Assembly: GCA_964605835.1 (NCBI GenBank)
Contig: CAZSEH010000002.1
Coordinates: 19,773-83,772, forward strand
Length of the DNA: 64,000 nt
Source of the DNA: an uncultured Opitutaceae bacterium
GTDB lineage: Bacteria > Verrucomicrobiota > Verrucomicrobiia > Opitutales > Opitutaceae
Direction of reading: 5' to 3'
The stretch's first letter is position 1. Each line of letters starts with the position of its first letter. The translations under genes and the position numbers were made by a program. Positions 17,448 through 45,895 of this stretch are shown piece by piece. Below the pieces are notes generated by a model. It worked only from the letters and a program-made list of their open reading frames with translations. It did no database searches and was not told the origin of the DNA.

Positions 17448-19855
<2,408 letters not shown>

Positions 19856-30947: not shown

Positions 30948-32453
30948 ATGTCCCTGAGCGATAACTTCCGAGCCGCGAGATGGATACGCACGGCAAACCT
31001 CATTCTTCAGGCCATCCTCATCCTGACGCTGTTCGCGGGGCTCAATTATCTGGCGAACAACAGCGCGGGCGGCGGTGATCCCTGGAGGTTTGACCTCACG
31101 CGGTACCGCCGCTTCACGCTGTCGCCCGAGACGATCGCCTACGTGAGGGAGCTTTCGAGTCCCGTGCGCATCGTCGTGACCGAGGGCGAGGACAACGCTC
31201 CCGCCGATCTGCGGGGGCTCCTGCGGGAATACCAGAGTGTCTCCGAGTCGAACCCCGCCGGAGGCCGGATATCGGTCGACTACATCGACGTGGACCTTGC
31301 GCGGCGGATGGCCCAGCAGCTGGGTGTCGAGGAGCCCAACGCAGTCTTCGTCCTGCGCGGGACGTACCGCCAGATGCTAAGGATCGACGAGCTGTACCGC
31401 TTCGAGGACCAGGAGCGCAGCGCCTTCAAGGGCGAGCAGGCGATCACGGCCGCCATCCTGGATGTGGCCAGCGCAACGCGAAAGAAGATCTACTTCCTGT
31501 ATGGCCACTCGGAGCTTCGTCCGGACGATCCCGATTCGGTCCGCGGGCTGTCGACGCTGCGCGACCTTCTTCGCCAGCGCAATTTTGACGTCGATTCCCC
31601 GCTGCTCGACCTGTCCGCCACCCCCCAGGTCCCCGCGGACGCCTCGCTGCTGGTTTCGGTGCAGCCGCAGACGCGTTTCTCCCCGGCGGAGCAGGAACTG
31701 CTCCGCCAGTACCTCGGCGCGGGCGACGGCAGGCTGATGCTTTTCCTATCGCCGGGCTACGAGCACGGCCTCGACCGCCTGCTGCACGACTGGGGCGTCA
31801 CGGTCGACAACGATCTGCTGCGGGACAGCGGCGCGGAAAACGTGACGGAGGACGGGGATTTCATCATCAGCAGATTTGCGCCGGCGCACCCCGTGACGCA
31901 GGCGCTTCTGCACTCCAGCTACAAGGCGCGGCTGCGCCTGGGCCCCGCGCGGACCGTGCGGCCGGACATGACCCGTGCCGCGGGCAACGGGCTCGACGCG
32001 GTGACGCTCGCGGCCTCCTCGCCGACGGCCTGGGGAGAGGTCAACTTTTCGGCGCGCGGCGCCGCCACCATGAATCCGAGGGTCGACGTCCGGCCCCTGC
32101 CGTCCATGGACCCGCCCGACCGCCTCGGGATTGGCGTCGCCGCAGAGCACGTCGCCGCGCGCGACAACCTTCCCTTCAGCGTCCGCACCGGCCGCCTGAT
32201 CGTGTTCGGCTCCGGCGACCTGGTCGACAACCACCGCATCGCCGACGAGGGCGTCTTCAGCCTCGTCATCGGGGCCGTCAACTGGATGGCCGATCGCGAC
32301 ACGCAGCTCAACATCCCGCCCCGGCCGATTGAGCGTTTTCAGCTATTGCTCAGTCCGCGGGAGCTCCAGAATCTCCGCTATAGCCTCATGTTCATTCTGC
32401 CCGGCGCCGCGGCGCTTCTGGGCCTGATTGTTTACTGGACCCGCCGCAGCTAG
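30948..32453 (+). CDS. GldG-like ABC-transporter auxiliary protein
   Basis: 501 aa. N- and C-terminal TM anchors around a large periplasmic domain. 'FDLTRYRRFTLSPETIAYVRELSSPVRIVV' and 'IYFLYGHSE' match the GldG/ABC_transp_aux layout. Confidence 0.75.
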   Translation: MSLSDNFRAARWIRTANLILQAILILTLFAGLNYLANNSAGGGDPWRFDLTRYRRFTLSPETIAYVRELSSPVRIVVTEGEDNAPADLRGLLREYQSVSESNPAGGRISVDYIDVDLARRMAQQLGVEEPNAVFVLRGTYRQMLRIDELYRFEDQERSAFKGEQAITAAILDVASATRKKIYFLYGHSELRPDDPDSVRGLSTLRDLLRQRNFDVDSPLLDLSATPQVPADASLLVSVQPQTRFSPAEQELLRQYLGAGDGRLMLFLSPGYEHGLDRLLHDWGVTVDNDLLRDSGAENVTEDGDFIISRFAPAHPVTQALLHSSYKARLRLGPARTVRPDMTRAAGNGLDAVTLAASSPTAWGEVNFSARGAATMNPRVDVRPLPSMDPPDRLGIGVAAEHVAARDNLPFSVRTGRLIVFGSGDLVDNHRIADEGVFSLVIGAVNWMADRDTQLNIPPRPIERFQLLLSPRELQNLRYSLMFILPGAAALLGLIVYWTRRS

Positions 32454-32471
32454 ACCGACCCGCCCTCCGCC

Positions 32472-34430
32472 ATGCGCACCAAAGTCACGCTCGTTCTGCT
32501 TTTCCTGAATGTCGCCCTGTTTTTCGTGATCTTCCAGTTCGAGCGCAGCTGGCGCACCGAGAGCGTGGCGCGCGAGGTCAGGAAGCGCGTTCTCGGGGCC
32601 GAGGCGGCCGACATCCGATCCCTCGACGTGGAGAGCGCCCTGCCGGGAGGCTCCTTCAGCCTCGAGCGGCGGGGCGAAGAGTGGTTTCTCACCAAGCCGA
32701 TCGCCTGGCGGGCCAATCCGAACGCGGTCAACCGCATCGTGAGCGACCTTGAGTTTCTCGAGCACGACACGAGCTTCAGCGTGCCGGCGGTCGTCAAGAA
32801 CGGGCAGTCCCTGGCGGACTACGGGCTGGCGCAGCCGAAGCTGACGGTGACGTTCACCTCGGGCGGACCCGACACGACCGGGGCGGCCCCGGTCACGACG
32901 CGGCTCGCGATCGGGGAGGCGACCAAGGTCGGCCAGCGGCTCTATCTGCTCTCGCCGGACGGCGCGCGGATACATGTCGTCGGCCGCGAGCTGGCGGACA
33001 GCCTCTCCGTGCCGATTGAGCAGCTGCGCGCCGAGACCGTGCTGACGATCCCCGTCTACGAGGCGCGGGCCCTGAACGTGCAGACGGCGCCTCCATCCGG
33101 CGTGCGGGTGATAGTCCAGCGGGACGGCGCGCGCTGGTCATTCTATACGCCCATAGCGGCGCGCGCGAGCAAGGACGCGATCGAGCTCGCGATCAACAAC
33201 CTGGACTCCCTCAGCGTGAAGGGCTTCCTCGCGCCGAACGCCCCGGTGCCGCCGGCCGCGCAGTTGCAGGTGACAATCGAGGGCAACACGCGATACGAGA
33301 CCCTTTTCATCGGGGTGCAGGCCCCGGGCAAGTCGGCTCCCGGCACGCACCCGTACTACGCCCAGCTCGAGGACTCGAGCAAGCCGATGGACCGGTCTCC
33401 ATGGTTCACCGTCGAGATACCCGACGAGGCGCCCGATTCGCTGCTGGGTTCGCTGCGCGACGCCCTGGAAAGGCTGCGCGACAGGCGCGTGCTCGACGTC
33501 GATCCCAGCCTGGCCACGATGATCACGCTCAAGGCCCCCAACCAGCCCGACCTGACGCTGCAGCGACTCGATCCGGACACGGCGCGGGCGGCGCCCGCAA
33601 GCGAGGCGCGCTGGCAGATCCTTCTGCCGGGCGATGGCGGGCAGGGTCCGGCGACGCTGCCCGCCGACCGCGCCGCCGTCCAGCGGCTGCTCGACAGGAT
33701 CGCCCTTCTTTCCGCGGAGCGCTTCATGAGCGACGCCCCGCAGGAGAGCGACCTCGAGAACTGGGGATTCAACCGCCCCGAGCGCACCGTCACGATCACC
33801 CAGCAGCCAGCCGCGCAGCCTGCATCCCGGGCCGCGCCGGCGGCCGCCCCCCTGACCCTAGAGATTGGCCGGCCGGCGCAGCGCGACGACCGGTATGTCT
33901 ATGCGATGATGGCAAACGCGCGCTCGGTCTATGCGGTCGATCCGCAGATCCTCAGGGACACGCCTGTGGCCCCGCGCGAATGGCGCGACAGGCTCGTTTT
34001 CAGCCTGCCCGGACCGGCGCGGATCACCGGGCTCGAAATCGACGACCTGAGGGACGGCAAGCCGGTCGCCCGGTGGGATGCGTCGTCCGGAGCGGCGCCG
34101 AGGGAGGTGCAGGCGGTTCTCGACGGGTTGCGCCAGGTTAGGGCGGCCCGCTTTGTCGGCGACGGTTATGCGGACAGGGTGACGGTGGCCGGCGAGGAAG
34201 GGCCGTGGCGGTACCGCCTCCAGGCGACGGTCGCGCTGCCCGGCGCCGGCGCGAGCGAGCAGACCGGCACGCGGGCGATCATGCTCGCGGAGAGGTCGGG
34301 CGGCGCCGAGCAGATCGCAGGATCCGCCGAATTCGGGGCCGTTTTTGTGCTCGAGCAGCCGATGATAGACGCCCTTTGGACGCTGATCTACGGGTCCCGC
34401 GACCCGGGTTTGCCTCCTGCGAGAAACTGA
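32472..34430 (+). CDS. DUF4340-like periplasmic protein, N-terminally anchored
   Basis: 652 aa. TM 'VTLVLLFLNVALFFVIFQF'. Repeated ~100-aa beta-rich modules. It occupies the position after the gldG-like gene where DUF4340 proteins usually sit. Confidence 0.6.
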   Translation: MRTKVTLVLLFLNVALFFVIFQFERSWRTESVAREVRKRVLGAEAADIRSLDVESALPGGSFSLERRGEEWFLTKPIAWRANPNAVNRIVSDLEFLEHDTSFSVPAVVKNGQSLADYGLAQPKLTVTFTSGGPDTTGAAPVTTRLAIGEATKVGQRLYLLSPDGARIHVVGRELADSLSVPIEQLRAETVLTIPVYEARALNVQTAPPSGVRVIVQRDGARWSFYTPIAARASKDAIELAINNLDSLSVKGFLAPNAPVPPAAQLQVTIEGNTRYETLFIGVQAPGKSAPGTHPYYAQLEDSSKPMDRSPWFTVEIPDEAPDSLLGSLRDALERLRDRRVLDVDPSLATMITLKAPNQPDLTLQRLDPDTARAAPASEARWQILLPGDGGQGPATLPADRAAVQRLLDRIALLSAERFMSDAPQESDLENWGFNRPERTVTITQQPAAQPASRAAPAAAPLTLEIGRPAQRDDRYVYAMMANARSVYAVDPQILRDTPVAPREWRDRLVFSLPGPARITGLEIDDLRDGKPVARWDASSGAAPREVQAVLDGLRQVRAARFVGDGYADRVTVAGEEGPWRYRLQATVALPGAGASEQTGTRAIMLAERSGGAEQIAGSAEFGAVFVLEQPMIDALWTLIYGSRDPGLPPARN

Positions 34431-37222
34431 TGGCCCGCGTCTTTTCCCAATTGTGCGCCGGGGGGGCGCGGCTTGCCCTGAAGGGCGCGATGACCTTCGG
34501 GTTGTGGACCGTTTGGCTGGGCCTGGCGCTATTGCTCGTCGCGCAGGCTTACATCGCCTCGAAGAACGAGCTGCAGGTTCCGGCGTTCGTCCAGCGGGCG
34601 CTCCTGGAGCGCCTCGCGGCGTCCGGAGTCCACATCAGCTTCGGGCACACCCTTTTCGACCCGTCCGGGCGCGTCATCATCGAGAACGCCGCGGTGACCC
34701 TGGACGGATTCGAGGAGCCGATCGCCACGGCGCGCGCGATCTACGCGCGCATAGATCCCTGGGCGCTTGCCGCGGGACGCTTTGAACCGCTCGAGATGCG
34801 GGTGACCGGCATGAGCGTGAGGGTTCCCGCGATGCTCTCCGCTTCCGGGCGGCCGGACGACGTAATACAGGACCTCGACGCGGCCATTGTCCCAAGAGGG
34901 GACGCGTTTTCGATCGAGTACCTGCACTGCCGCGTCGGCAGCCTTGCGGTTTCCGCCGGGGGGAGCGTGCGCCTGGGCGCCCTGCCGGGCCCCCGCGGCG
35001 CCCCGCTGCCCGTCGCGGAATTCTTCGCACGCAATTATGTCGGCCTGATTCGCCGGTGCGCGGCCGCAGTCGGGGCGATTTCGGCGTTCGACCAGGCGGG
35101 CCTTCGCATATGGCTCGAGCCGGCCGCCGGGCGGGGAATGGTCGCCCGCACGATCCTGATCGCCGACGGGGTGAAGCTCTCGGCGCCGGTTGCTCTCCGG
35201 GCGGGACGGTTGCGCGCCGCCGGCCGGTGGTCTCTTTTGGGCGATTCGCCCGACTCGGGCGAGGTGCTCCTGTCGCTCGCGGACATCGACTTGCCGGGCA
35301 TCAAGGCGTCCGCGCGGGGGATCGGGGCGCGAATGGACATCGGTTCGCAGCCGGAGCAGGGGAATGCAGCCGGCGTGCGCATTTTGATCAAATCGGCCGA
35401 CCTTTCGGGGGCCGGCGGCGTCGTCGACGGCCTGGCCTTTCAGGATGCCATCGTGACCCTGGGTTCGGCGGGTTCGGACCTTCTTCGGGCCGGCCAGGTG
35501 CGGGTGTCGGGAAAGGCGCTTTTATGGGGGGAACCGGTTTGGGTGGACGGCGTTGTCGATCCGGCCCGCGGGGCCGCCCGGGCGCAGTTCAAGGCGGCGG
35601 TGGCGCCGGAGGCGCTTGATTTTGTCGGCGCCCGGATCCGGCGGGATCTGGGCTCCTTTGTAAGGCTCTCGCAGCCGGTGGGCCTGGAAGGCGGCCTTCG
35701 ATTCGATCCGGGCTGGAAGTTCGCCGAGGTCGCCGGGCGGCTGGACGCGGCGGGGGTCTTCGCGCGCGGAGTGGTGATCGACGAGGTCCGGGGCGAATTC
35801 CGTTTTGACGGCAGCCACCTGTACGCGCCCGAGGCCTACGCCCGGATAGGGGAGAACTTTGCGCGCGGAAGCTTCGAGGAGGAGATGGCGACCCGCCGGT
35901 ATCGCTTTCTTTTGGACGGCCGCCTGCGCCCCCTGGACATCACTCCCTGGATTGCGGGGGCCTGGTGGCAGACATTCTTCGGCAACTTTGCGTTTCCGGC
36001 GGTTCCGCCCTCCGCGAGCATCGACCTGGGCAGCTGCTGGACGGACGGAAGGCAGGCGCGGATATTCCTGTCGGTCGACGGCCCCGGAATCATCGTCCGG
36101 GGCGCCCCTTTTGACCGGCTTCGCCTGACGCTGTTCTCCCGGCCGCAGTTCAACGATGGAATCAGGCTCGAGGTGACCCGGGGAAAGGGCGCCGCCAGGG
36201 GAACCTTTGAGCGGCGTCTCGATCTCGACGCCGGGCCCCCGTCGCAGAACATCGATTTCAGCGTTGTATCGACCCTGGACCTGGCAGCCGTCGCGCCGAT
36301 GTTCGGGCCCGCGGGGGCGACCCTGCTTTCTCCCTACGCATTCTCGCAGCCCCCCGAACTCGACATCAGCGGCCATTGGAACGGGCCGGCCGCGCCCGGC
36401 GGGTCCCATCAGGTCTTCCATATCGGGGTGCGCAGCGCGGGAGCGTTCCGCTTTCACGATTTTCCGGTCGATGACGCGTCCTTCACGGTGGACCTGAGGG
36501 ACGACGATGTGGCGATTTCCCAGATCCGGGCGGGATTCGCCGGGGGCGCGGCCACCGGAAAGGCGAAAGTCTGGGGACGCGGCGCCGACCGAAGACTCTC
36601 GTTCGACGCGGCGCTGACCGACGCGCAGCTCGATCGCGCCATCCTTGCCGTCGGAAACTACACGGCGACCCGCTCGCTGAAGGCCGCCCCGGCGGTTGGC
36701 GGCATTCTGAAGGAAAAATCCGCCGTGAAGCTGGATGCGACGGTGACGGCCGAGGGGCGGATGGGCGATCCGTCCACCTTCCAGGGAAGCGGCAATGCGC
36801 AGCTGCAGGGAGCCGGGCTCGGCGAAGTGCGCGTGCTCGGGCTTCTGTCCGACCTGCTCCGGTTCACGGCGCTTCGCTTCACGACGGCGCGCGCGGCTTT
36901 CAGGCTGAACGGCTCGCGGCTGGACTTTCCTGAAATAAACGTGACCGGGGCCAATTCGGCCATAACCGCGCATGGAAGCTACTCGATCGACAGCCACGAT
37001 CTCGACTTCAAGGCCCGGATCAACCCGTTCAAGGAAAGCAGGACATTGCCGCTGCAATTCATGGACGCCATGCTCGCCCCGGTTGCGCAGGCTTTTGAGG
37101 TCCGGCTCACCGGCAAGATCGAGAAGCCGGCCTGGATGTTCGTCAACGGCCCGGCAAACTTCCTGCGAAACCTGAACCAGCCCCCTGCGACGCCGACACC
37201 CTCTCCCCTGAAGGATCCATGA
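34430..37222 (+). CDS. Large (930 aa) N-terminally anchored AsmA/TamB-like protein
   Basis: ORF 34205..37222. The ATG at 34430 overlaps the upstream stop (TGATG). TM 'FGLWTVWLGLALLLVAQAYIA'. Long beta-rich body. C-terminus '...ITAHGSYSIDSHDLDFKARINPF...EVRLTGKIEKPAWMF' resembles AsmA-like C-terminal modules. Functional class is inferred. Confidence 0.5.
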   Translation: MARVFSQLCAGGARLALKGAMTFGLWTVWLGLALLLVAQAYIASKNELQVPAFVQRALLERLAASGVHISFGHTLFDPSGRVIIENAAVTLDGFEEPIATARAIYARIDPWALAAGRFEPLEMRVTGMSVRVPAMLSASGRPDDVIQDLDAAIVPRGDAFSIEYLHCRVGSLAVSAGGSVRLGALPGPRGAPLPVAEFFARNYVGLIRRCAAAVGAISAFDQAGLRIWLEPAAGRGMVARTILIADGVKLSAPVALRAGRLRAAGRWSLLGDSPDSGEVLLSLADIDLPGIKASARGIGARMDIGSQPEQGNAAGVRILIKSADLSGAGGVVDGLAFQDAIVTLGSAGSDLLRAGQVRVSGKALLWGEPVWVDGVVDPARGAARAQFKAAVAPEALDFVGARIRRDLGSFVRLSQPVGLEGGLRFDPGWKFAEVAGRLDAAGVFARGVVIDEVRGEFRFDGSHLYAPEAYARIGENFARGSFEEEMATRRYRFLLDGRLRPLDITPWIAGAWWQTFFGNFAFPAVPPSASIDLGSCWTDGRQARIFLSVDGPGIIVRGAPFDRLRLTLFSRPQFNDGIRLEVTRGKGAARGTFERRLDLDAGPPSQNIDFSVVSTLDLAAVAPMFGPAGATLLSPYAFSQPPELDISGHWNGPAAPGGSHQVFHIGVRSAGAFRFHDFPVDDASFTVDLRDDDVAISQIRAGFAGGAATGKAKVWGRGADRRLSFDAALTDAQLDRAILAVGNYTATRSLKAAPAVGGILKEKSAVKLDATVTAEGRMGDPSTFQGSGNAQLQGAGLGEVRVLGLLSDLLRFTALRFTTARAAFRLNGSRLDFPEINVTGANSAITAHGSYSIDSHDLDFKARINPFKESRTLPLQFMDAMLAPVAQAFEVRLTGKIEKPAWMFVNGPANFLRNLNQPPATPTPSPLKDP

Positions 37223-40913: not shown

Positions 40914-42146
40914 TCAGAGGAGCCGGGAAAGCGCCCGCATCTCCCCGGCGTGCGAGGGGTCCGAAGCGAGGTTGTTCATCTCGAGCGGGTCCGATTCGAG
41001 ATCGAAGAAAAGCCAGGGGGAACCGTCCTCGTTGAGGATGAGTTTTCGGCCCGGCGTGCGAAGTCCGCGCCAGGGGCGGTCGCATTGGAGGGGAAAGGGG
41101 ACGGCGGATGGCATCGAAATCAACTGGACCTCGGCCCGGGGAAAGCTCGGGGCGCACGACCCCGATTCGGAGCCCTCAAGCCCGGCCCAGGCCGATGTCC
41201 ATTTGTGGAGATCGACCAGGGACACCGCCTGCCGGGTCCTTACCCCGTTCCTGGACGGCCCGCCTGACGGAAGCCTGACCAGGAGCGGCACCCGCACGCT
41301 TTCCTCGTGGGGCCAGCCCTTGCGGAAAAGCCCGTGGGCGCCGTGCATGTCGCCGTGGACCGATGTGAAGACGATGACGGCGGAAGCCGGCGCGGCGTCG
41401 ATCAGGCTTCCGACGGCCCTGTCCGTCGCCTCGATATGCGCGTAATAGCCCGCCAGTTCGCGCCGGGCGCGCACCTCCGCGTCGCCCCCGCAGGGCACGT
41501 TCCCGGGCAGGACGATTTCGCGGGGGTCGCGGAAGGCTGCGCCGGGAGCCGGGGCATCGTAGGGCGGGTGGGGCGCCTCCAGGCTGACGATGCAGAACCA
41601 GGGGTGGGTGCGCTGGGAGCGAATCCAGTCCGCCGAGCGCCCGCAAAGGACGGATGCCTGGTAACCCCCGAAGCGGGTCGGTTGCCCGAGCCGGGTGCCG
41701 TGCAGCCACGGATCGTTCAGAAGGAAGCCGCTTTCGAAGCCTTCCCAAAATTCAAAGCCTCCGCGATCCTCGGGAGCCACGATCGTTCGCGCGTGGGCTT
41801 CGCCGACCATCGCGGCCGACGGATCGCGCCTGGAAAGATGCCATTTGCCGAAGAAGGCCGTCGCGTATCCGCTCCCGCCGAGCGTGTGCGCGAGGGTTCG
41901 CGCGCCCTTCGGCAGCGGATCAAAATAGTCGCGGACGCCGTTTTTGGGCGAAAGAACCCCCGTCAGGAGGGCCGCCCGCGCGAAGGGTCCGAAGGGATGG
42001 GGTGTGACCGCCTGGGTGAAATCGATGCTGCCTGCAGCGAGCCTGTCCAGCCGGGGCGTTCGCGCGTTCGGGTCGCCGGCGTAGCCGCACGCCTGCGCCC
42101 GCCATTGCGTGGTCACGATCCAGAGAATGTCGGGCGGTGCGGCCAT
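40914..42146 (-). CDS. Sulfatase-fold (alkaline-phosphatase superfamily) protein lacking the canonical catalytic residues; no signal peptide
   Basis: 410 aa. Family backbone is conserved ('TPRLDRLAAGSIDFTQA', 'ARAALLTG', 'HGDMHGAHGLFRKGWPHEESVRVPLLV'). The DD metal motif reads 'VTTQW', the C/S-x-P-x-R box reads 'G-P-F-A-R', and 'SDHG' reads 'SVHG'. Confidence 0.75.
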   Translation of the reverse strand: MAAPPDILWIVTTQWRAQACGYAGDPNARTPRLDRLAAGSIDFTQAVTPHPFGPFARAALLTGVLSPKNGVRDYFDPLPKGARTLAHTLGGSGYATAFFGKWHLSRRDPSAAMVGEAHARTIVAPEDRGGFEFWEGFESGFLLNDPWLHGTRLGQPTRFGGYQASVLCGRSADWIRSQRTHPWFCIVSLEAPHPPYDAPAPGAAFRDPREIVLPGNVPCGGDAEVRARRELAGYYAHIEATDRAVGSLIDAAPASAVIVFTSVHGDMHGAHGLFRKGWPHEESVRVPLLVRLPSGGPSRNGVRTRQAVSLVDLHKWTSAWAGLEGSESGSCAPSFPRAEVQLISMPSAVPFPLQCDRPWRGLRTPGRKLILNEDGSPWLFFDLESDPLEMNNLASDPSHAGEMRALSRLL

Positions 42147-42199: not shown

Positions 42200-43588
42200 C
42201 TACTGCAGTCCGGGCGGCATGGCGCGGACGCGCGCGCCGAGCGAATCAAGGACGGCGCTCGTTTTTTCGGCGGCGACGTCGTCCCCGGTGCGAAGGGTCT
42301 GCGCGGTCGCGAAGTCGCGGACGAGGGCGCAGTAGGTGTTGTTGACCATCAGGCCCAGGAATTCGCCGGTGTGGCTGAAGACGAGATCGCCCCGCGAAGG
42401 CGCAAAATCGCCGAAGAGGCGCTTGAAGAACCGGTTGTCCAGGCGCACATACCCCGGCTGCGACGCATCGAGCTTGAATCCGACCTCCCCATAGCCGCGG
42501 CTTCCGCTGATCAGGACGGCGTCGGGAAACTTGAACGGATCGGCGGCGAGCGGATAGACCTTGACCCCGAGGGAGGCGACCTGGGATGCGTCGACCGGAA
42601 CGGCGACGACGCGGGGGTCGACCGAGAGAATGTCGAGCGAGCCCGCGCTGGTCCGGTAGCCGGACGGCCTGTGGAATCGGACGCCGATCCGGTCCCAATC
42701 ATAGTTCGGGGTCCAGTAGGAGAAGGCCGTGTCCTCGATATGAAGAAGGGCGTAAACGGCCTTCCCGTCCGTCACAAAGACGGTGGGCGTTTGCCTGGAT
42801 CGGTTGACCTCGTTGAAGAGGCCTTTGCGGCTCGCGGTGAAATCGGTGTCGACGCGATTGGCGAGGAAGTCATTGAAGAGAATGTTGGCATTGACGGGCC
42901 GGTTGGACCGAATCTCGTCGGTCAGTTCGCCGGAACGCTCGGCCAGCCTGCCAACCCCTTGCGCGAGCTGCGCGGTCGATGCCTGCACCTTGATGCGTTC
43001 GGCGCGTTCGCTCCGCACCTGGTCCTGCAGCTGGTCGGACTGTTCCTTGAGATGCTGCCTTTCCGACTCCCCGACAACCACGGCCATCGTCAGCCCCTCG
43101 ATCTGCTTTAGGGCGTCCGCCTGCTGCTTTTGAAGATCGGTGAGAGCCCGCTTCTGGCGCTCGGCCTCGGCCGCCTTTTCCGCGAGTTCGCGCTGGAGCT
43201 GCGCGAGCTGATCCCTGGTCAGGGTCGATTCCTGGCGGGCGGCAGCCATCTGCCGGCTCAGCTCGGCGGCGTTTCGCCGGGTTTCCCCAAGCGAGGCGGA
43301 CAGGCTCGCCTTGTCGCTCTCGATCGCCGTGAGGCTTTGCTCGCGCACAGCGAGAGTCTGGCCGGTCTCGGCGAGCTTTTGCTCAAGTCCCTGCCTCGCC
43401 AGCTGCTCGTCGGCGAGCGCATCGCGCATGGATTCGACCAGGTCCTGGTCCCGGCTCGCGGTGTTGGCGGCCACCGCCGGAACTGGCGGCGCGTGGGGAC
43501 GGACGGGCTCGGCCCTCTCCCAGCGCGTGAGCGCTATCAGGTTCAGGAAGAGGAAGTCTACTATGAACAGAAGCAGGGTCTTGTTCAT
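42200..43588 (-). CDS. Membrane-anchored coiled-coil protein with ExbD/TolR/MotB-like Asp-containing TM and a beta-rich C-terminal domain
   Basis: 462 aa. N-terminus 'MNKTLLLFIVDFLFLNLIAL' has a single Asp in an apolar TM. About aa 47-235 is heptad-like and Q/E/A/L/R-rich. The C-terminal ~225 aa is beta-rich. The ATG overlaps the upstream stop (ATGA). Confidence 0.6.
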   Translation of the reverse strand: MNKTLLLFIVDFLFLNLIALTRWERAEPVRPHAPPVPAVAANTASRDQDLVESMRDALADEQLARQGLEQKLAETGQTLAVREQSLTAIESDKASLSASLGETRRNAAELSRQMAAARQESTLTRDQLAQLQRELAEKAAEAERQKRALTDLQKQQADALKQIEGLTMAVVVGESERQHLKEQSDQLQDQVRSERAERIKVQASTAQLAQGVGRLAERSGELTDEIRSNRPVNANILFNDFLANRVDTDFTASRKGLFNEVNRSRQTPTVFVTDGKAVYALLHIEDTAFSYWTPNYDWDRIGVRFHRPSGYRTSAGSLDILSVDPRVVAVPVDASQVASLGVKVYPLAADPFKFPDAVLISGSRGYGEVGFKLDASQPGYVRLDNRFFKRLFGDFAPSRGDLVFSHTGEFLGLMVNNTYCALVRDFATAQTLRTGDDVAAEKTSAVLDSLGARVRAMPPGLQ

Positions 43589-45252
43589 ACCGTGTTCGCC
43601 AGGCCCTCGTTCTCCAGGATGAGCCGCCGCTTGAAGGCGCGCACATGCCTGATCTTGACGAGGGCGACGCAGACGATGCCGAAGAGGTTGGAGGAGTAGG
43701 CGGCGAGCAGGTTCGGCTCGATGACGCCGAGCACCTGAAGCACAAGGGCTGCGGCGGTGCCCATCATGCCGACGTAAAGGCCGCTGTCGAAGAGGTTCTC
43801 CTCATTTTCCATCAGGCGGAGCTTGAGAAGCGGGGGCATGTCCTCCCCGCTGATCGTGTTGATCTTCCTGACGCAGACAAAGTACATCGCCACCTGGATG
43901 AGGGCGAAGACGGCTATCGAGACGAGTGTCGAAGTGTTCATGTTGGAAATATCGGATTTTGAAGGGGTGTTGGCCGCGGGCAGCGCGCCGGAAGCGGCGA
44001 GCATCGGCATCCGCAGGTGGAACTGGTAGTCGGGCGATGGCGCCGAGGCGCGAAGGAGAAACGGCTCCGTGGCCACGATGAAAAGGGTTGCCAGCCCCAG
44101 GGCGACTATGCCCGCCCGGACGGGCATCGCGGCGCGGGCGCCCGGACCGGTCGCGGGTGTCACGACCAGGCGGTCGAGGCCCCTGAGGATCAGGAGAAGG
44201 CCCGCAAAATAGCCGAGGTATTTCACGGCAAGCATCAGCTGGGGATGCGCAAGGACGAGGGCGGCCGTGTGGCTGATCGCCGGGCCCGCATTGCGGTTGA
44301 CCGGCACCTGGCGGAGCAAAAGCTGCTGCACGGCGCCCTGTCCGTAGGACAGGGCTGTCCGGAGGTCCTCCGAGCCCGCCTGGCCGTACTGCAGGAGATA
44401 GGCGGCCACCTTGTCGGCCGAGTCCGTGAAGAGGGCCGCCGCGTAGATCTGGCTGAAGCGGCCGGGCGCGGCCCGCGAGAGCTGCGCGAATTCGCCCATC
44501 GTGCGGATGCTGCCGGTCCGCCGCAGGAGTTCGCCCAATTGCGTCCAGTCGAGGCGGCGCCCGAGGGAGAGCAGATCGAGGAAGAAGGGCCCGAGGTCCC
44601 CGAGGTCCCGCTGCGCCGCGGCCGTCTCCGCGAGGCTCCGCAGTTCGCGCTGAAGGGAAGGGGAAAGATGCTCGCCCTGGTACAGGAGGCCGGTGAGCAG
44701 GATCAGGGCGTCCAGCGGCTGGCCGCCGGGCCGGTTCGCCGGGACGAAACGGCCCGTCGCGGTGAGTTCGCGCAGGGCGAGCAGCTCCTGCACGCCCATC
44801 GAGCCGGAAGTGGCGAGATAGGAGCGCATCGCATCGCGGGAGGCCTGCGGAATGAGAAAGGTGAGGATGGGCGTGTCGGCGCCGTGCCCGGTCGGCTTTC
44901 GCAGGTTGAAAAGGGGATCGAGGAACGGGTCCCAGCCGCCCCACGCCGCGAACGACGGCTGGCGGGACACCTGGCGGTCCAGCGCCTGGGCGAGCCCGGC
45001 CGCCCGGGGGTCGTTGCAGGCGCGCGCGGCCGACAGCACGAGCTCGGCCGGGCCGACCTTTTCAACATCGACCAGGCTCCTGCCGAACTCGGAAAGGGAG
45101 GGGGTCCCTGCTCCCGCCTCCTGCAGCAGGACCGGGCTGACCGACTTGAGGTTGGCCGGCAGCAGCCATGCGGCGGCGGCCACAAACAGGCCGCCGGCCA
45201 ACAACACCGGGCTCCCGACGGGGGTCCTGGCACGCGGAAACGTTTCGCTCAT
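43585..45252 (-). CDS. Polytopic membrane protein with MotA/TolQ/ExbB-like C-terminal channel module and large helical N-terminal domain
   Basis: ORF 43585..45312. I prefer the ATG at 45252 (MSETFPRARTPVGSPVLLAGGLFVAAAAWLL). The last three TMs, 'LVSIAVFALIQVAMYFVCV' - loop - 'LFDSGLYVGMMGTAAALVLQVLGVIEPNLLAAYSSNLFGIVCVALV' + basic tail, resemble the ExbB/MotA 'LGLLGTV.G...P..la.gis.AL..T..Gl' layout. Family assignment is by eye only. Confidence 0.55.
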   Translation of the reverse strand: MSETFPRARTPVGSPVLLAGGLFVAAAAWLLPANLKSVSPVLLQEAGAGTPSLSEFGRSLVDVEKVGPAELVLSAARACNDPRAAGLAQALDRQVSRQPSFAAWGGWDPFLDPLFNLRKPTGHGADTPILTFLIPQASRDAMRSYLATSGSMGVQELLALRELTATGRFVPANRPGGQPLDALILLTGLLYQGEHLSPSLQRELRSLAETAAAQRDLGDLGPFFLDLLSLGRRLDWTQLGELLRRTGSIRTMGEFAQLSRAAPGRFSQIYAAALFTDSADKVAAYLLQYGQAGSEDLRTALSYGQGAVQQLLLRQVPVNRNAGPAISHTAALVLAHPQLMLAVKYLGYFAGLLLILRGLDRLVVTPATGPGARAAMPVRAGIVALGLATLFIVATEPFLLRASAPSPDYQFHLRMPMLAASGALPAANTPSKSDISNMNTSTLVSIAVFALIQVAMYFVCVRKINTISGEDMPPLLKLRLMENEENLFDSGLYVGMMGTAAALVLQVLGVIEPNLLAAYSSNLFGIVCVALVKIRHVRAFKRRLILENEGLANTV

Positions 45253-45319: not shown

Positions 45320-45895
45320 ATGTCCCTGTCAATTGTTCACTATAACGACCCGGTTTTGCGCCGCAAGGGCGAGAAAGTCACCTCGTTCGACCCTGCGCTG
45401 GAGGTCCTTGCCGGTCAGATGATGGCCGCGATGCACGCAGCGGAGGGCATCGGGCTGGGGGCGCCGCAAGTCGGCCGCTCGCTGCAACTGTGCGTCGTTG
45501 ATCTGCTGGCGAGCGAGTCCGAGTACATCTGGGAACTCGACGGGGCCAAACCGCCGCGCGAACTGTTCATGCCCCTTGCCCTTGTCAACCCGAAGGTCAC
45601 CGTCGCTCCGCGGACGCCCCAGGTTGTGGTGGAGGAGGGATGCCTCTCGTTCCCGAAGATCCGCGGGGACGTCTCGAGGCCGGATGAGATCGCCGTCGAG
45701 TTCAGCGACGAGCGCGGAAACAGGCACACGCTTCGCTGCAATGGCCTGCTGTCGCGGTGCATCCAGCACGAGGTCGATCACCTGAACGGAGTCCTCTTCA
45801 TCGACCGCATGGACAAGAAGGCCCGCGCGCTGGTTGACGCCGACGTGAAGGCCCTTGCGAAGAAGACGCGCCAGGCGCGCAAGCCGGTCGCATGA
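45320..45895 (+). CDS. def: Peptide deformylase
   Basis: 191 aa. 'GIGLGAPQVG', 'EGCLSFP', 'QHEVDHLNG'. No fmt follows. Confidence 0.95.
   Translation: MSLSIVHYNDPVLRRKGEKVTSFDPALEVLAGQMMAAMHAAEGIGLGAPQVGRSLQLCVVDLLASESEYIWELDGAKPPRELFMPLALVNPKVTVAPRTPQVVVEEGCLSFPKIRGDVSRPDEIAVEFSDERGNRHTLRCNGLLSRCIQHEVDHLNGVLFIDRMDKKARALVDADVKALAKKTRQARKPVA

What the first reader, a model, noticed from the sequence alone, without database searches (positions are those of the whole stretch)
42200..45252. Orphan stator-like gene pair: MotA/ExbB-like channel protein coupled to an Asp-TM, ~190-aa coiled-coil 'B' subunit with a non-OmpA, non-TonB C-terminal domain
**Seen in sequence.** Two minus-strand genes overlap by ATGA (43585-43588), which implies translational coupling.

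**Upstream protein (~555 aa).** It ends in three TMs plus a basic tail. Their layout and motifs ('GLYVGMMGTAAAL', short loop 'EPNLL', 'AAYSSNLFGIVCVALV') resemble the proton-channel module of MotA/TolQ/ExbB. That module is fused to three further TMs and a ~320-aa helical domain I cannot place.

**Downstream protein.** It begins 'MNKTLLLFIVDFLFLNLIAL', a single TM with one buried Asp. A buried Asp in the TM is the hallmark of ExbD/TolR/MotB (established knowledge). It continues as ~190 aa of heptad-like coiled coil. If fully helical, that is long enough in principle to span a periplasm, as in TolA. It ends in a ~225-aa beta-rich domain with no OmpA/peptidoglycan-binding or TonB_C motif. Segments such as 'TPTVFVTDGKAVYALLHIEDT' and 'SRGDLVFSHTGEFLGLMVNN' faintly recall a chymotrypsin-fold protease without a clear catalytic Ser (speculative).

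**Context.** There are no flagellar, Tol-Pal, ExbBD-TonB, gliding (GldLM) or Zorya partner genes nearby. The next gene is a catalytically degenerate sulfatase-fold protein.

**Inference.** This is an ion-driven 5:2-type motor with a new output module and unknown function.
Basis: partly seen in the sequence, partly recalled or inferred. Interest (0 to 1): 0.7.

Follow-up and report, generated by a model that had tools for sequence, protein, structure and literature searches.

The report
Possible ion-driven membrane motor pair, Opitutae
Two tightly coupled, unannotated membrane-protein genes found across the Opitutae (Verrucomicrobiota) look like a very divergent relative of the proton-driven MotAB/ExbBD/TolQR motors, with the small subunit carrying a long coiled-coil stalk and an HtrA-protease-like head, but homology to those motors is not statistically proven.

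Summary
Gene A (555 aa, 43585-45252, minus strand) and gene B (462 aa, 42200-43588, minus strand) overlap by ATGA. Both are real genes with more than 1,300 homologues each, and neither has a Pfam, NCBIfam or PADLOC family.

The A-B order holds in 84 of 86 related loci, down to 30% identity, and 59 of 84 junctions overlap by 4 nt. B's N-terminal transmembrane (TM) helix is its most conserved part. Asp11 is present in 197 of 197 correctly delimited homologues.

B continues as a true heptad coiled coil of about 190 aa. It ends in a domain that AlphaFold2 and Foldseek place in the HtrA/DegP/DegS fold (E 7e-7). The triad-like His and Ser are often replaced across the family, so this is mostly a binding module rather than an enzyme.

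In A, the last three TM helices are the most conserved part and share the ExbB/TolQ topology. They carry co-linear motifs (GxxGT, SS[T/N]LFG) that match the functional Thr positions of ExbB/TolQ/PomA.

Formal homology was not shown. Pfam, PDB profile search and Foldseek found nothing, and hhalign gave only 11% probability (1 of 200 shuffles reached the score).

Verdict: a plausible new, highly divergent stator-like pair (about 0.45). The sulfatase-like neighbour is not a core part.

The parts
43585..45252 (-). Gene A: a 555-aa membrane protein with 6 TM helices, with no Pfam, NCBIfam or PADLOC family.
   Evidence: ORF. An identical gene call of 555 aa is on ENA contig L001. There are 1,447 word-index homologues and 570 clusters at 50% identity. 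The AF2 model has pLDDT 90.8.
44245..45159 (-). A residues 32-336: an all-helical domain of about 300 aa, inferred to be periplasmic, with no recognisable fold relative.
   Evidence: DSSP on the AF2 model shows helices only. No significant Foldseek or PDB match. The periplasmic location is inferred from charge counts (positive-inside) in the flanking loops.
43588..43935 (-). A residues 440-555: TM4, a short cytoplasmic loop (LKLRLMENEENLFD), TM5 (GLYVGMMGT), a 7-aa loop, TM6 (AAYSSNLFGI) and a basic tail. This is the candidate MotA/ExbB-like channel module.
   Evidence: It is the most conserved part of A, at 0.76-0.82 column identity against 0.45-0.56 elsewhere. G495, G498, S521, G525, K533 and R538 are invariant, and T499 is T in 243 and S in 4 of 247. 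hhalign places YVGMMGTAAALV on ExbB LLGLLGTVAGLV with P 0.0028, and 1 of 200 shuffles reached that score. The extended alignment is co-linear.
43585..43588 (-). ATGA stop/start overlap between A and B, implying translational coupling.
   Evidence: Sequence read. A 4-nt overlap is conserved in 59 of 84 related loci, and the rest have gaps of -1 to +56 nt.
42200..43588 (-). Gene B: a 462-aa single-pass membrane protein with its bulk outside the cytoplasm.
   Evidence: ORF. A 100% identical protein, P0121, is in the database, with 1,397 homologues and no meaningful Pfam annotation.
43520..43588 (-). B residues 1-23: the N-terminal TM helix MNKTLLLFIVDFLFLNLIALTRW, with buried Asp11 (codon 43556-43558).
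   Evidence: Mean entropy is 0.36 bit, against 1.3-1.4 for the rest of B. D11, F12, M1 and N2 are invariant in 197 sequences. The helix is also conserved in distant relatives L084, L087, L089, L091 and L092.
42914..43456 (-). B residues 45-225: heptad coiled-coil stalk, about 28 nm long if fully extended.
   Evidence: Periodicity peak at 3.5 residues, 7-aa indels, and lengths of 191, 198 and 205 aa. SMC-type profile hits cover residues 45-229.
42203..42913 (-). B residues 226-462: HtrA/DegS-fold (PA-clan double beta-barrel) domain. Triad-like H283, D324 and S398 are all present in this copy.
   Evidence: AF2 pLDDT 90.1. The 50 Foldseek hits listed are all HtrA-type protease domains, with E down to 7e-7, probability 1.00 and TM-score 0.40-0.48. 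Across 198 homologues, position 283 is H143/E41/D14, D324 is 198 of 198, and position 398 is S165/K13/A8/T7/R1 plus two alignment gaps and two unlisted.
45320..45895 (+). def (peptide deformylase), transcribed divergently 67 bp upstream of A. It is a conserved neighbour, not a demonstrated functional part.
   Evidence: Pfam Pep_deformylase on L001. It lies upstream of A in nearly all 80 Opitutaceae loci and in the distant loci L084 and L092.
40914..42146 (-). Sulfatase-fold protein lacking the catalytic motifs. It is a loosely linked neighbour, not a core part.
   Evidence: Pfam Sulfatase 4e-30. GPFAR replaces C/S-x-P-x-R and TTQ replaces DD (read). A homologue lies within 7 kb downstream of B in 36 of 84 loci and within 200 nt in only 8.

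Best explanation
**Claim.** A and B form one inner-membrane complex that works like the MotAB/ExbBD/TolQR class of ion-driven machines. It is either a very divergent branch of that class or an analogue of it.

**Shown.**
- The two genes are an obligate, translationally coupled pair across the class Opitutae.
- The most constrained parts of the pair are B's single TM helix with its invariant Asp11, and A's last TM hairpin with its invariant GxxGT and SS[T/N]LFG motifs.
- B carries a heptad coiled coil and an HtrA-fold head.

**Inferred.**
- Several copies of A's TM4-TM6 module surround B's TM helices. Five A to two B is assumed by analogy only.
- T499 and S521/T522 lie roughly 15-18 A (10-12 residues) from the cytoplasmic face, and Asp11 about 12 A (8 residues) in. 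They form the polar ring around Asp11.
- Protonation and deprotonation of Asp11 by the proton motive force drives relative movement of A and B.
- A has almost no cytoplasmic domain, so the work is delivered in the periplasm.
- B's stalk of about 28 nm carries the HtrA-fold head toward the peptidoglycan or outer membrane. There the head binds a peptide or protein partner. It may cleave it in species that keep the His-Asp-Ser positions, as this one does.
- B would then combine TolR-like and TolA-like roles in one protein.
- A's 300-aa periplasmic helical domain forms a collar around the base of the stalk, acting as a gate or an anchor.
- The likely role is housekeeping of the cell envelope.
For: - **Synteny and coupling.** B follows A in 84 of 86 loci, and 59 of 84 junctions overlap by 4 nt. 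The pair is present in relatives at 30-42% identity.
- **B's TM helix.** Its entropy is 0.36 bit against about 1.3 for the rest of B, and D11 is invariant.
- **Where A is conserved.** Conservation peaks in the cytoplasmic loop, TM5 and TM6. G495, G498, S521, G525, K533 and R538 are invariant, and T499 is T or S in 100% of 247 sequences.
- **Topology.** A's TM4-6 has the ExbB/TolQ core topology: TM running out to in, cytoplasmic loop, hairpin with a short periplasmic loop, then a basic cytoplasmic tail.
- **hhalign core match.** The only above-background hit of A's C-terminal profile to a 63-sequence ExbB profile falls on the GLLGT motif. That motif holds the essential TM2 Thr. The score was 24.9 against 13.3 +/- 2.6 for shuffles, and 1 of 200 shuffles reached it.
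- **Extended alignment.** It is co-linear through the pre-TM2 LE..LE..F motif, GxxGT and S-T-T-x-x-G.
- **Same motif in other family members.** The best local match also lands there in PomA (spanning both TM helices), E. coli ExbB and TolQ.
- **Precedent.** Asp-bearing trans-pore helices fused directly to non-OmpA output domains (TPH-vWA), paired with TolQ-like genes and lacking TolR, have been described, including in Verrucomicrobia (PMC12204202).
- **Stalk.** The coiled coil keeps its heptad register through 7-aa indels.
Against: - **No significant similarity.** No significant sequence or fold similarity of A to MotA/ExbB/TolQ was found.
- **Weak hhalign signal.** Probability was 11% over 12 columns. 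Single-sequence comparisons scored no better than reversed-profile controls.
- **A is atypical.** It has three extra TM helices, a 300-aa periplasmic domain and almost no cytoplasmic domain.
- **B is atypical.** It has only 3 cytoplasmic residues before its TM helix.
- **HtrA oligomer state.** From general knowledge, HtrA-type domains usually form trimers, which would not fit a B dimer.
- **B-less lineage.** One lineage, close to Coraliomargarita sp. CAG:312 (L083), keeps A without an adjacent B.
- **Untested.** Stoichiometry and ion dependence were not tested.
Confidence: 0.45

Rival explanations
1. A non-motor membrane complex. B is a membrane-anchored HtrA-fold protease or pseudoprotease held on a coiled-coil stalk. 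A is its polytopic scaffold or regulator. Asp11 serves only as a polar contact for helix-helix packing with A, and no ion flow is involved. Signals would pass by conformational change, much as FtsEX controls the coiled-coil pseudo-hydrolase EnvC, or as membrane-anchored DegS senses envelope stress.
For: - The only statistically solid fold assignment is HtrA-like.
- A shows no significant similarity to any motor family.
- A's layout of TM1, a large periplasmic domain, then further TM helices resembles regulators that grip periplasmic partners (general knowledge of FtsX and MacB).
- Membrane-anchored HtrA proteins such as DegS are common (general knowledge).
Against: - A simple anchor would not be the most conserved part of the protein on nearly all helix faces.
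- A charged Asp invariant in mid-membrane across 30%-identity divergence is typical of ExbD/TolR/MotB. It is rare in packing contacts.
- A's conservation peaks in a TM hairpin carrying the same Thr/Ser motifs as ExbB and PomA.
- No ATPase or other energy source is encoded next to the pair.
- The protease triad is not conserved, so regulated proteolysis cannot be the general function.
Confidence: 0.33
2. A is an independent channel or transporter. B is a separate periplasmic stalked protease-fold protein that is merely co-transcribed with A.
For: One lineage keeps A without an adjacent B (L083). One metagenome-assembled genome (L060) has B almost wholly deleted.
Against: - The 4-nt overlap and strict adjacency hold in 84 of 86 loci over deep divergence.
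- The strongest conservation in both proteins lies in their membrane segments.
- Neither protein was seen paired with any other consistent neighbour.
Confidence: 0.1
3. B is an active, membrane-tethered HtrA-type quality-control protease in this organism, and A is its substrate-delivery or gating partner.
For: - This copy has H283, D324 and S398 in the order and spacing of an HtrA triad. The gaps are 41 and 74 residues here, against 30 and 75 in DegS.
- The motif PSRGDLVFSHTGEFLGL lines up with DegS NSGGALVNSLGELMGI.
Against: - Across 198 orthologues the His is E or D in 28%. The Ser is not retained in 17% (K, A, T or R in 29, plus gaps).
- There is no PDZ domain and no Trypsin or Trypsin_2 Pfam hit.
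- The oxyanion-hole GNSGG motif is replaced by APSRG.
- The sequence alignment to DegS is not significant, at P 0.21.
Confidence: 0.1

Closest known systems
ExbB-ExbD(-TonB) and TolQ-TolR(-TolA) proton-driven 5:2 motors
   Same: - The gene order is A-type then B-type, with translational coupling.
- The B-type subunit is a single-pass membrane protein, N-terminus in the cytoplasm, with an invariant TM Asp.
- The A-type core has one TM helix plus a TM hairpin with a short periplasmic loop and a cytoplasmic C-terminus.
- GxxGT and S/T-T-x-x-G motifs sit at matching positions.
- A long helical periplasmic reach ends in a globular head, as in TolA.
   Different: - No significant sequence or Foldseek similarity was found.
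- A has three extra TM helices, a 300-aa periplasmic helical domain and almost no cytoplasmic domain.
- The stalk and head are part of B itself, not a third protein bound at the side.
- The head has an HtrA fold, not a TonB/TolA C-terminal domain or an ExbD/TolR periplasmic domain.
TPH-vWA proteins paired with TolQ-like genes (Mol Biol Evol 2025, PMC12204202)
   Same: An Asp-bearing trans-pore helix is fused directly to a non-canonical periplasmic output domain. There is no separate TolR/ExbD gene. The systems are found in Verrucomicrobia and their function is unknown.
   Different: In those systems the A partner is a recognisable TolQ homologue and the output is a vWA domain on a disordered linker. 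Here A escapes PF01618 and the output is a coiled coil plus an HtrA-fold domain.
MotAB / PomAB flagellar stator units
   Same: B has an Asp in its TM helix (D-F-L... here, D32-F-M... in MotB). The GT motif in TM5 and the S-[T/N]-L-F-G motif in TM6 resemble PomA G-T158 and T185-T186-L-Y-G.
   Different: There are no flagellar genes, no torque-generating cytoplasmic domain, no plug or OmpA-like peptidoglycan-binding domain, and no Pfam MotA_ExbB hit.
HtrA family (DegP, DegQ, DegS), clan PA serine proteases
   Same: The predicted fold of B residues 226-462 matches (Foldseek E 7e-7, probability 1.0). Like DegS, B is anchored by an N-terminal TM helix. His, Asp and Ser lie in triad order in this copy.
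   Different: There is no PDZ domain and no sequence-level match. The GNSGG oxyanion motif is absent. His and Ser are often replaced in orthologues. A 190-aa coiled coil lies between the anchor and the domain.
FtsEX-EnvC (and PcsB, RipC, CwlO) mechanotransmission systems
   Same: A polytopic membrane protein with a large periplasmic domain is paired with a coiled-coil protein that ends in a degenerate hydrolase-fold domain.
   Different: Those systems use an ABC ATPase (FtsE). EnvC is soluble and has no TM Asp. The folds differ (LytM or CHAP against HtrA). No FtsX Pfam hit was found here.
GldLM / PorLM type IX secretion and gliding motors
   Same: A small channel subunit with little extramembrane mass on one side is paired with a single-pass partner that forms a long periplasmic stalk.
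   Different: In GldLM the protonatable residue is a Glu on GldL, and the stalk is built of beta-rich domains. No sequence similarity was found, and there are no T9SS genes here.

Membership tests
MotA/TolQ/ExbB proton channel family (PF01618) | Significant match to the family profile | tested here: not met
   Pfam gave no hit for A at E<=1. One of 66 family members hit, at E 0.16. hhalign against a 63-sequence ExbB profile gave probability 10.9% and P 0.0028 over 12 columns.
MotA/TolQ/ExbB proton channel family (PF01618) | Similarity to solved ExbB, TolQ, MotA or PomA chains, by sequence or by fold | tested here: not met
   phmmer and the family profile against PDB gave 0 hits at E<=10. A true ExbB finds these chains in the same search. 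Foldseek with full-length A gave best E 0.69 and no motor protein among the 50 hits listed. The C-terminal module was not searched on its own.
MotA/TolQ/ExbB proton channel family (PF01618) | Core topology: TM running out to in, cytoplasmic segment, TM hairpin with a short periplasmic loop, cytoplasmic C-terminus | tested here: met
   AF2 helices at 440-469, 474-507 and 515-554. Charge counts place the TM4-5 loop and the tail in the cytoplasm and the 8-aa TM5-6 loop outside.
MotA/TolQ/ExbB proton channel family (PF01618) | Conserved Thr in the two pore-lining helices (ExbB T148/T181, TolQ T145/T178, PomA T158/T186) | tested here: inconclusive
   T499 is T in 243 and S in 4 of 247. S521 is invariant. 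Position 522 is N in 148 and T in 97. These residues align with the Thr positions in the extended hhalign alignment. The alignment itself is below significance.
MotA/TolQ/ExbB proton channel family (PF01618) | Pentamer enclosing a dimer of B-subunit TM helices | not testable with these tools
   No multimer prediction was available. It needs AF-Multimer/AF3 or cryo-EM.
ExbD/TolR/MotB B-subunits | Single N-terminal TM helix with an invariant, functionally essential Asp, encoded directly after the A gene | tested here: met
   D11 is present in 197 of 197. B follows A in 84 of 86 loci, mostly with a 4-nt overlap. Whether the Asp is essential was not tested.
ExbD/TolR/MotB B-subunits | ExbD/TolR periplasmic domain (PF02472) or MotB OmpA-like peptidoglycan-binding domain | tested here: not met
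   No such Pfam or NCBIfam hit. The C-terminal domain has an HtrA fold.
HtrA / clan PA (S1) serine proteases | Chymotrypsin-like double beta-barrel fold | tested here: met
   AF2 pLDDT 90.1. Foldseek gave 123 PDB hits at E<=0.001. The 50 listed are all HtrA-type, with probability 1.00 and TM-score 0.40-0.48.
HtrA / clan PA (S1) serine proteases | Conserved His-Asp-Ser catalytic triad and GNSGG oxyanion motif | tested here: not met
   Across the family His is 72% and Ser 83%, while Asp is 100%. The motif here is APSRGD. This copy does have H283, D324 and S398. No Trypsin Pfam hit and no PDB profile hit.
HtrA / clan PA (S1) serine proteases | C-terminal PDZ domain or domains | tested here: not met
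   The protein ends about 30 residues after the barrel, with one helix. No PDZ Pfam hit.
TPH-fused force transducers (TPH-vWA; PMC12204202) | Asp-bearing trans-pore helix fused to an output domain, next to a recognisable tolQ-like gene and with no tolR | tested here: inconclusive
   The Asp helix fused to an output domain is present, and no tolR/exbD gene is nearby. The partner A is not a recognisable TolQ, and the output domain is not vWA.
Zorya ZorAB | Match to ZorA/ZorB models, with ZorC/D/E partners nearby | tested here: not met
   PADLOC gave no hit for A and only coiled-coil noise for B. The neighbours are housekeeping genes.
Sulfatase (PF00884), for the neighbouring gene | C/S-x-P-x-R formylglycine motif and N-terminal metal-binding Asp-Asp | tested here: not met
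   The fold matches Pfam at 4e-30. The motif positions read G-P-F-A-R and T-T-Q in the translation.

The most novel reading that the evidence does not exclude
A and B define a previously unrecognised family of ion-driven stator-type motors spread across the class Opitutae. Its A subunit has diverged beyond detection by PF01618 and has gained a large periplasmic collar. Its B subunit fuses the Asp trans-pore helix to a periplasm-spanning coiled coil and an HtrA-fold binding head. This would be a two-gene equivalent of TolQ-TolR-TolA with a new kind of output.
Probability: 0.4. Interest if true: 0.75.

Novelty: new variant of a known kind. Interest (0 to 1): 0.6.

Why it matters
Known 5:2 ion-driven motors power flagella, TonB-dependent uptake, Tol-Pal envelope constriction, gliding and type IX secretion, and Zorya phage defence. 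Each new output module has revealed a new way of sending energy from the inner membrane to the outer envelope.

If this reading is right, three things follow:
- The class includes members that profile searches cannot see, so surveys based on PF01618 undercount it.
- A protease-fold domain on a rigid coiled coil can serve as a motor output.
- A whole bacterial class carries an uncharacterised envelope machine, probably a housekeeping one.

Both proteins currently have no family annotation despite more than 1,000 homologues each. Even the firm results are useful for annotating Verrucomicrobiota genomes. These are the obligate pair, the invariant TM Asp, the heptad stalk and the HtrA-fold pseudoprotease head.

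Tried and rejected
- **Family libraries.** Pfam, NCBIfam and PADLOC scans of A and B found only coiled-coil noise for B.
- **PDB sequence searches.** phmmer and profile searches with A, B, the A family and the B C-terminal family found nothing useful.
- **Foldseek with full-length A.** No significant hit.
- **Pfam on family members.** A scan of 66 A-family members gave PF01618 once, at E 0.16. A scan of 19 B C-terminal domains gave no trypsin family.
- **hhalign, other modes.** The global mode gave nothing. The comparison with E. coli MotA gave nothing either. Single-sequence comparisons with PomA, ExbB and TolQ landed on the expected motif but scored no better than reversed controls.
- **hhalign of B's head against DegS.** Not significant, at P 0.21.
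- The model therefore rests on homologues of 59% identity or more.
- **Sulfatase as third subunit.** Rejected, because linkage is loose.
- **Active protease as the general function.** Rejected, because His and Ser are not conserved.
- **B's N-terminus as a cleaved signal peptide.** Rejected. It has an invariant Asp, no signal-peptidase motif, and is the most conserved region of B.
- **Other families considered.** Zorya, FtsX, TatC and MreCD were considered and dropped for lack of any profile hit.
- **Failed query.** One literature query failed on syntax.

Full report
**1. The observation**

Both ORFs are present on the minus strand at the stated coordinates.
- The junction reads ...AAC ACG GTA TGA with ATG AAC AAG in the +1 register. 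This is a true ATGA overlap at 43585-43588.
- A starts at the ATG at 45252 and is 555 aa long. The same gene call is made on an identical ENA contig (L001), and the closest homologues are 552-555 aa with full coverage.
- The window has 61-70% G+C, so many long spurious ORFs overlap these genes. Only these two have homologues.

**2. Both are real, widespread and unannotated**

- A has 1,447 and B 1,397 word-index homologues. The few top hits that carry an organism name are 'hypothetical protein' from Opitutaceae. None has meaningful Pfam annotation.
- An exhaustive HMMER search of cluster representatives found 570 clusters for A. Of these, 255 score below 1e-30, and they are full-length (about 550 aa) down to 30% identity.
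- At least 590 GTDB species genomes encode A.
- Named members come from Opitutaceae, Puniceicoccaceae and Coraliomargarita, so the family spans the class Opitutae.
- Pfam, NCBIfam and PADLOC give nothing for A. For B they give only coiled-coil noise from SMC-, JetC- and Rad50-type models.

**3. Anatomy of A**

The AF2 model built on a 66-sequence alignment is confident, with pLDDT 90.8 and pTM 0.86. Its layout is:

| Residues | Feature |
|---|---|
| 13-29 | TM1 |
| 32-336 | all-helical domain |
| 337-363 | TM2 |
| 370-395 | TM3 |
| 396-439 | disordered loop |
| 440-469 | TM4 |
| about 470-489 | 20-aa loop, LKLxLLENEENLFD |
| 490-507 | TM5 |
| 508-514 | 7-aa loop |
| 515-554 | TM6, continuing as a helix into a basic tail |

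- Charge counts over 247 sequences were used to assign sides. The tail has 5.9 K+R against 1.7 D+E, and the TM5-6 loop has 0.2 K+R. These place the N-terminus, the TM2-3 loop, the TM4-5 loop and the tail in the cytoplasm. The 300-aa helical domain falls in the periplasm (inference).
- Conservation is concentrated in the cytoplasmic loop, TM5 and TM6, at 0.76-0.82 mean column identity against 0.45-0.56 elsewhere.
- F449, Q453, N483, E484, F488, L492, G495, G498, S521, G525, K533 and R538 are invariant. T499 is T in 243 and S in 4 of 247.

**4. Is A's C-terminus a MotA/ExbB module?**

By standard criteria, homology is not demonstrated.
- Pfam gives no hit. One of 66 members hits PF01618, at E 0.16.
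- The family profile finds nothing in PDB at E<=10.
- As a positive control, a genuine Opitutales ExbB (L083) retrieves TolQ, ExbB, MotA and PomA by plain phmmer.
- Foldseek with the full-length model gives no significant hit, and no motor protein is among the 50 hits listed.

I then built an ExbB profile from three sources:
- the L083 ExbB;
- 60 Opitutales proteins annotated PF01618;
- E. coli ExbB and TolQ, recalled from memory. These two were not checked against PDB directly, but they did detect the L083 ExbB. My recalled PomA and DegS sequences proved identical to PDB chains.

hhalign of A residues 430-555 against this profile gave these results:
- One local hit: YVGMMGTAAALV on LLGLLGTVAGLV, P 0.0028, probability 10.9%.
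- The reversed-profile control gave P 0.15, and A's TM2-3 region gave P 0.75.
- Column-shuffled versions of the query scored 13.3 +/- 2.6 against 24.9 observed. One of 200 shuffles reached the observed value.
- The posterior-extended alignment is co-linear:
  - A's TM4 lies on ExbB TM1.
  - LKLxLLENEENLFD lies on LEitrLERGmF.
  - GLYVGxxGT lies on APLLGLLGT.
  - AAYSS(T/N)LFGI lies on LALSTTIIGL.
- The best local hit also lands on the same motif in PomA (154-192, spanning both helices, with GT...TTLYG on GT...S(T/N)LFG), in E. coli ExbB (142-161) and in TolQ (139-146). Their P values are 0.01-0.05 and are no better than reversed controls.

The resemblance therefore sits at the residues that matter in the known motors (established knowledge):
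- the Thr of GxxGT corresponds to ExbB T148, TolQ T145 and PomA T158;
- the S/T cluster corresponds to ExbB T181, TolQ T178 and PomA T185/186.

It is a lead, not proof of membership.

**5. Anatomy of B**

*TM helix.*
- Residues 1-23 (MNKTLLLFIVDFLFLNLIALTRW) are the most conserved part of B, at 0.36 bit against 1.3-1.4 bit elsewhere.
- M1, N2, D11 and F12 are invariant in 197 sequences. The few variable positions (8, 9, 10, 14, 18) show only conservative hydrophobic swaps.
- Distant homologues at 28-49% identity keep MN[KR][ST]LLxIxxDFLL.

*Coiled coil.*
- Residues 45-235 have a single hydrophobic periodicity peak at 3.5 residues (power 2.53 against 0.4 or less elsewhere).
- Indels are mostly 7 aa (48 of 93 insertions), and the common lengths are 191, 198 and 205 aa. 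This is a coiled coil that keeps its register.
- Fully extended, it would be about 28 nm long (inference).

*C-terminal head.*
- Residues 225-462 fold with pLDDT 90.1 into a beta-rich domain.
- The 50 Foldseek hits listed against PDB are all HtrA/DegP/DegQ/DegS/AlgW/HTRA1-type protease domains. E values go down to 7e-7, probability is 1.00, TM-score is 0.40-0.48, and 123 hits fall at E<=0.001.
- No sequence method detects this.
- H283, D324 and S398 lie in triad order with HtrA-like spacing. PSRGDLVFSHTGEFLGL lines up with DegS NSGGALVNSLGELMGI (low-confidence alignment).
- Over 198 distinct homologues the counts are:

| Position | Residues found |
|---|---|
| 283 | H 143, E 41, D 14 |
| 324 | D 198 |
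| 326 | R 198 |
| 398 | S 165, K 13, A 8, T 7, R 1, plus two alignment gaps and two unlisted |

Canonical catalysis is therefore not a conserved property of the family. The head is best read as a binding module (a pseudoprotease) that may still be active in some species, possibly this one.

**6. Linkage**

- In the 80 species genomes returned, and in the further loci fetched through distant A homologues, B follows A in 84 of 86 loci that have room for it.
- 59 of 84 junctions overlap by 4 nt, and the rest have gaps of -1 to +56 nt.
- Five of six distant relatives (A at 30-42% identity) have the pair.
- There are two exceptions:
  - L083 comes from a gut lineage close to Coraliomargarita sp. 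CAG:312. There an LpxA-like gene follows A.
  - L060 is a metagenome-assembled genome in which B is deleted except for its last 32 or so codons.
- def lies divergently upstream in nearly all loci, including one at 30% identity. I take this as conserved housekeeping context.
- The sulfatase-fold gene lies within 200 nt of B in only 8 of 84 loci, within 7 kb in 36, and is absent from the rest. It is not a core component.
- No ExbB, TolQ or MotA homologue occurs among the window's ORFs.

**7. Mechanism proposed**

*Shown.*
- A and B are an obligate, coupled pair.
- Its strongest constraints lie in B's Asp-bearing TM helix and A's last TM hairpin.
- A has a periplasmic collar domain.
- B has a heptad stalk and an HtrA-fold head.

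*Inferred.* The pair works like ExbBD/TolQR.
- Counting residues from the cytoplasmic boundary, Asp11 is about 8 residues in, T499 about 10, and S521/T522 about 11-12.
- The polar Thr/Ser residues could therefore ring the Asp, as in ExbB-ExbD.
- Protonation cycles would drive relative movement between A and B.
- A has almost no cytoplasmic mass, so the output must be periplasmic.
- B would act as TolR and TolA in one chain, carrying a peptide- or protein-binding head toward the peptidoglycan or outer membrane.
- A published precedent exists for Asp trans-pore helices fused directly to non-canonical output domains and paired with TolQ-like genes, including in Verrucomicrobia (PMC12204202).
- Non-flagellar members with condensed cytoplasmic domains are also known (PMC12505986).

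I give this reading 0.45. The main rival is a non-motor complex of a stalked pseudoprotease and its polytopic partner, at 0.33.

**8. Novelty**

- Neither protein belongs to any curated family I could search.
- The two full-text literature searches and the two papers read turned up no description of this pair.
- If the motor reading holds, it is a new variant of a known kind: a 5:2-type motor with a new A layout and a new output.
- If it does not hold, it is still a new, class-wide two-component envelope complex with an HtrA-fold pseudoprotease.

Noticed in passing
L060:8480-8700 (MAG Opitutia bacterium Tous-C4FEB): B is almost entirely missing. A's 3' end is joined directly to the last 32 or so codons of B, and the sulfatase-like gene follows about 100 nt later. 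This is either a natural deletion of about 1.3 kb or a MAG assembly artefact.
   Followed up: partly
L083:4638-8007 (gut lineage, cluster includes Coraliomargarita sp. CAG:312): The A homologue (28% identity, all C-terminal motifs intact) is followed by LpxA-like and PdxA genes instead of B. No B-like sequence occurs in the 14-kb locus. A canonical exbB-exbD pair lies 3 kb upstream on the other strand.
   Followed up: partly
window 40914-42146 (-): The sulfatase-fold protein (Pfam 4e-30) lacks the formylglycine motif (G-P-F-A-R in place of C/S-x-P-x-R) and the N-terminal metal-binding Asp-Asp (T-T-Q). It is a pseudo-sulfatase that recurs within 7 kb downstream of B in 36 of 84 loci.
   Followed up: partly
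window 18000-18091 (-): ARAGORN calls a 92-nt tRNA-Arg(CCG). Rfam finds no tRNA there at the gathering score, nor at E<=1 on the 300-nt region. It is probably a false positive.
   Followed up: yes
B residues 283 and 398 across homologues (window codons 42740-42742 and 42395-42397): Loss of the triad-like His (to E or D) and loss of the Ser (to K, A, T or R) occur in different lineages. Sequences with E or D at 283 keep Ser, with one exception (P0217) and one gap. Sequences with K, A, T or R at 398 keep His, again with P0217 as the only exception. D324 and R326 never change.
   Followed up: partly
window ~32400-37222 (+) (L001:16367-21389): Upstream of the hybrid histidine kinase lie three genes. 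They are a 930-aa protein with no Pfam family, a DUF4340 protein and an ABC_transp_aux (GldG-like) protein. Together they look like an uncharacterised ABC-2 accessory cluster, apparently unrelated to A-B.
   Followed up: no
B residues 22-44 (window 43457-43525): Just outside the membrane, B has a conserved RWE(K/R)AEP motif followed by a Pro-rich linker (PPVP), before the coiled coil starts. A has an invariant E396-P397 at the periplasmic end of TM3. These could form a periplasmic A-B contact or a plug-like element.
   Followed up: no
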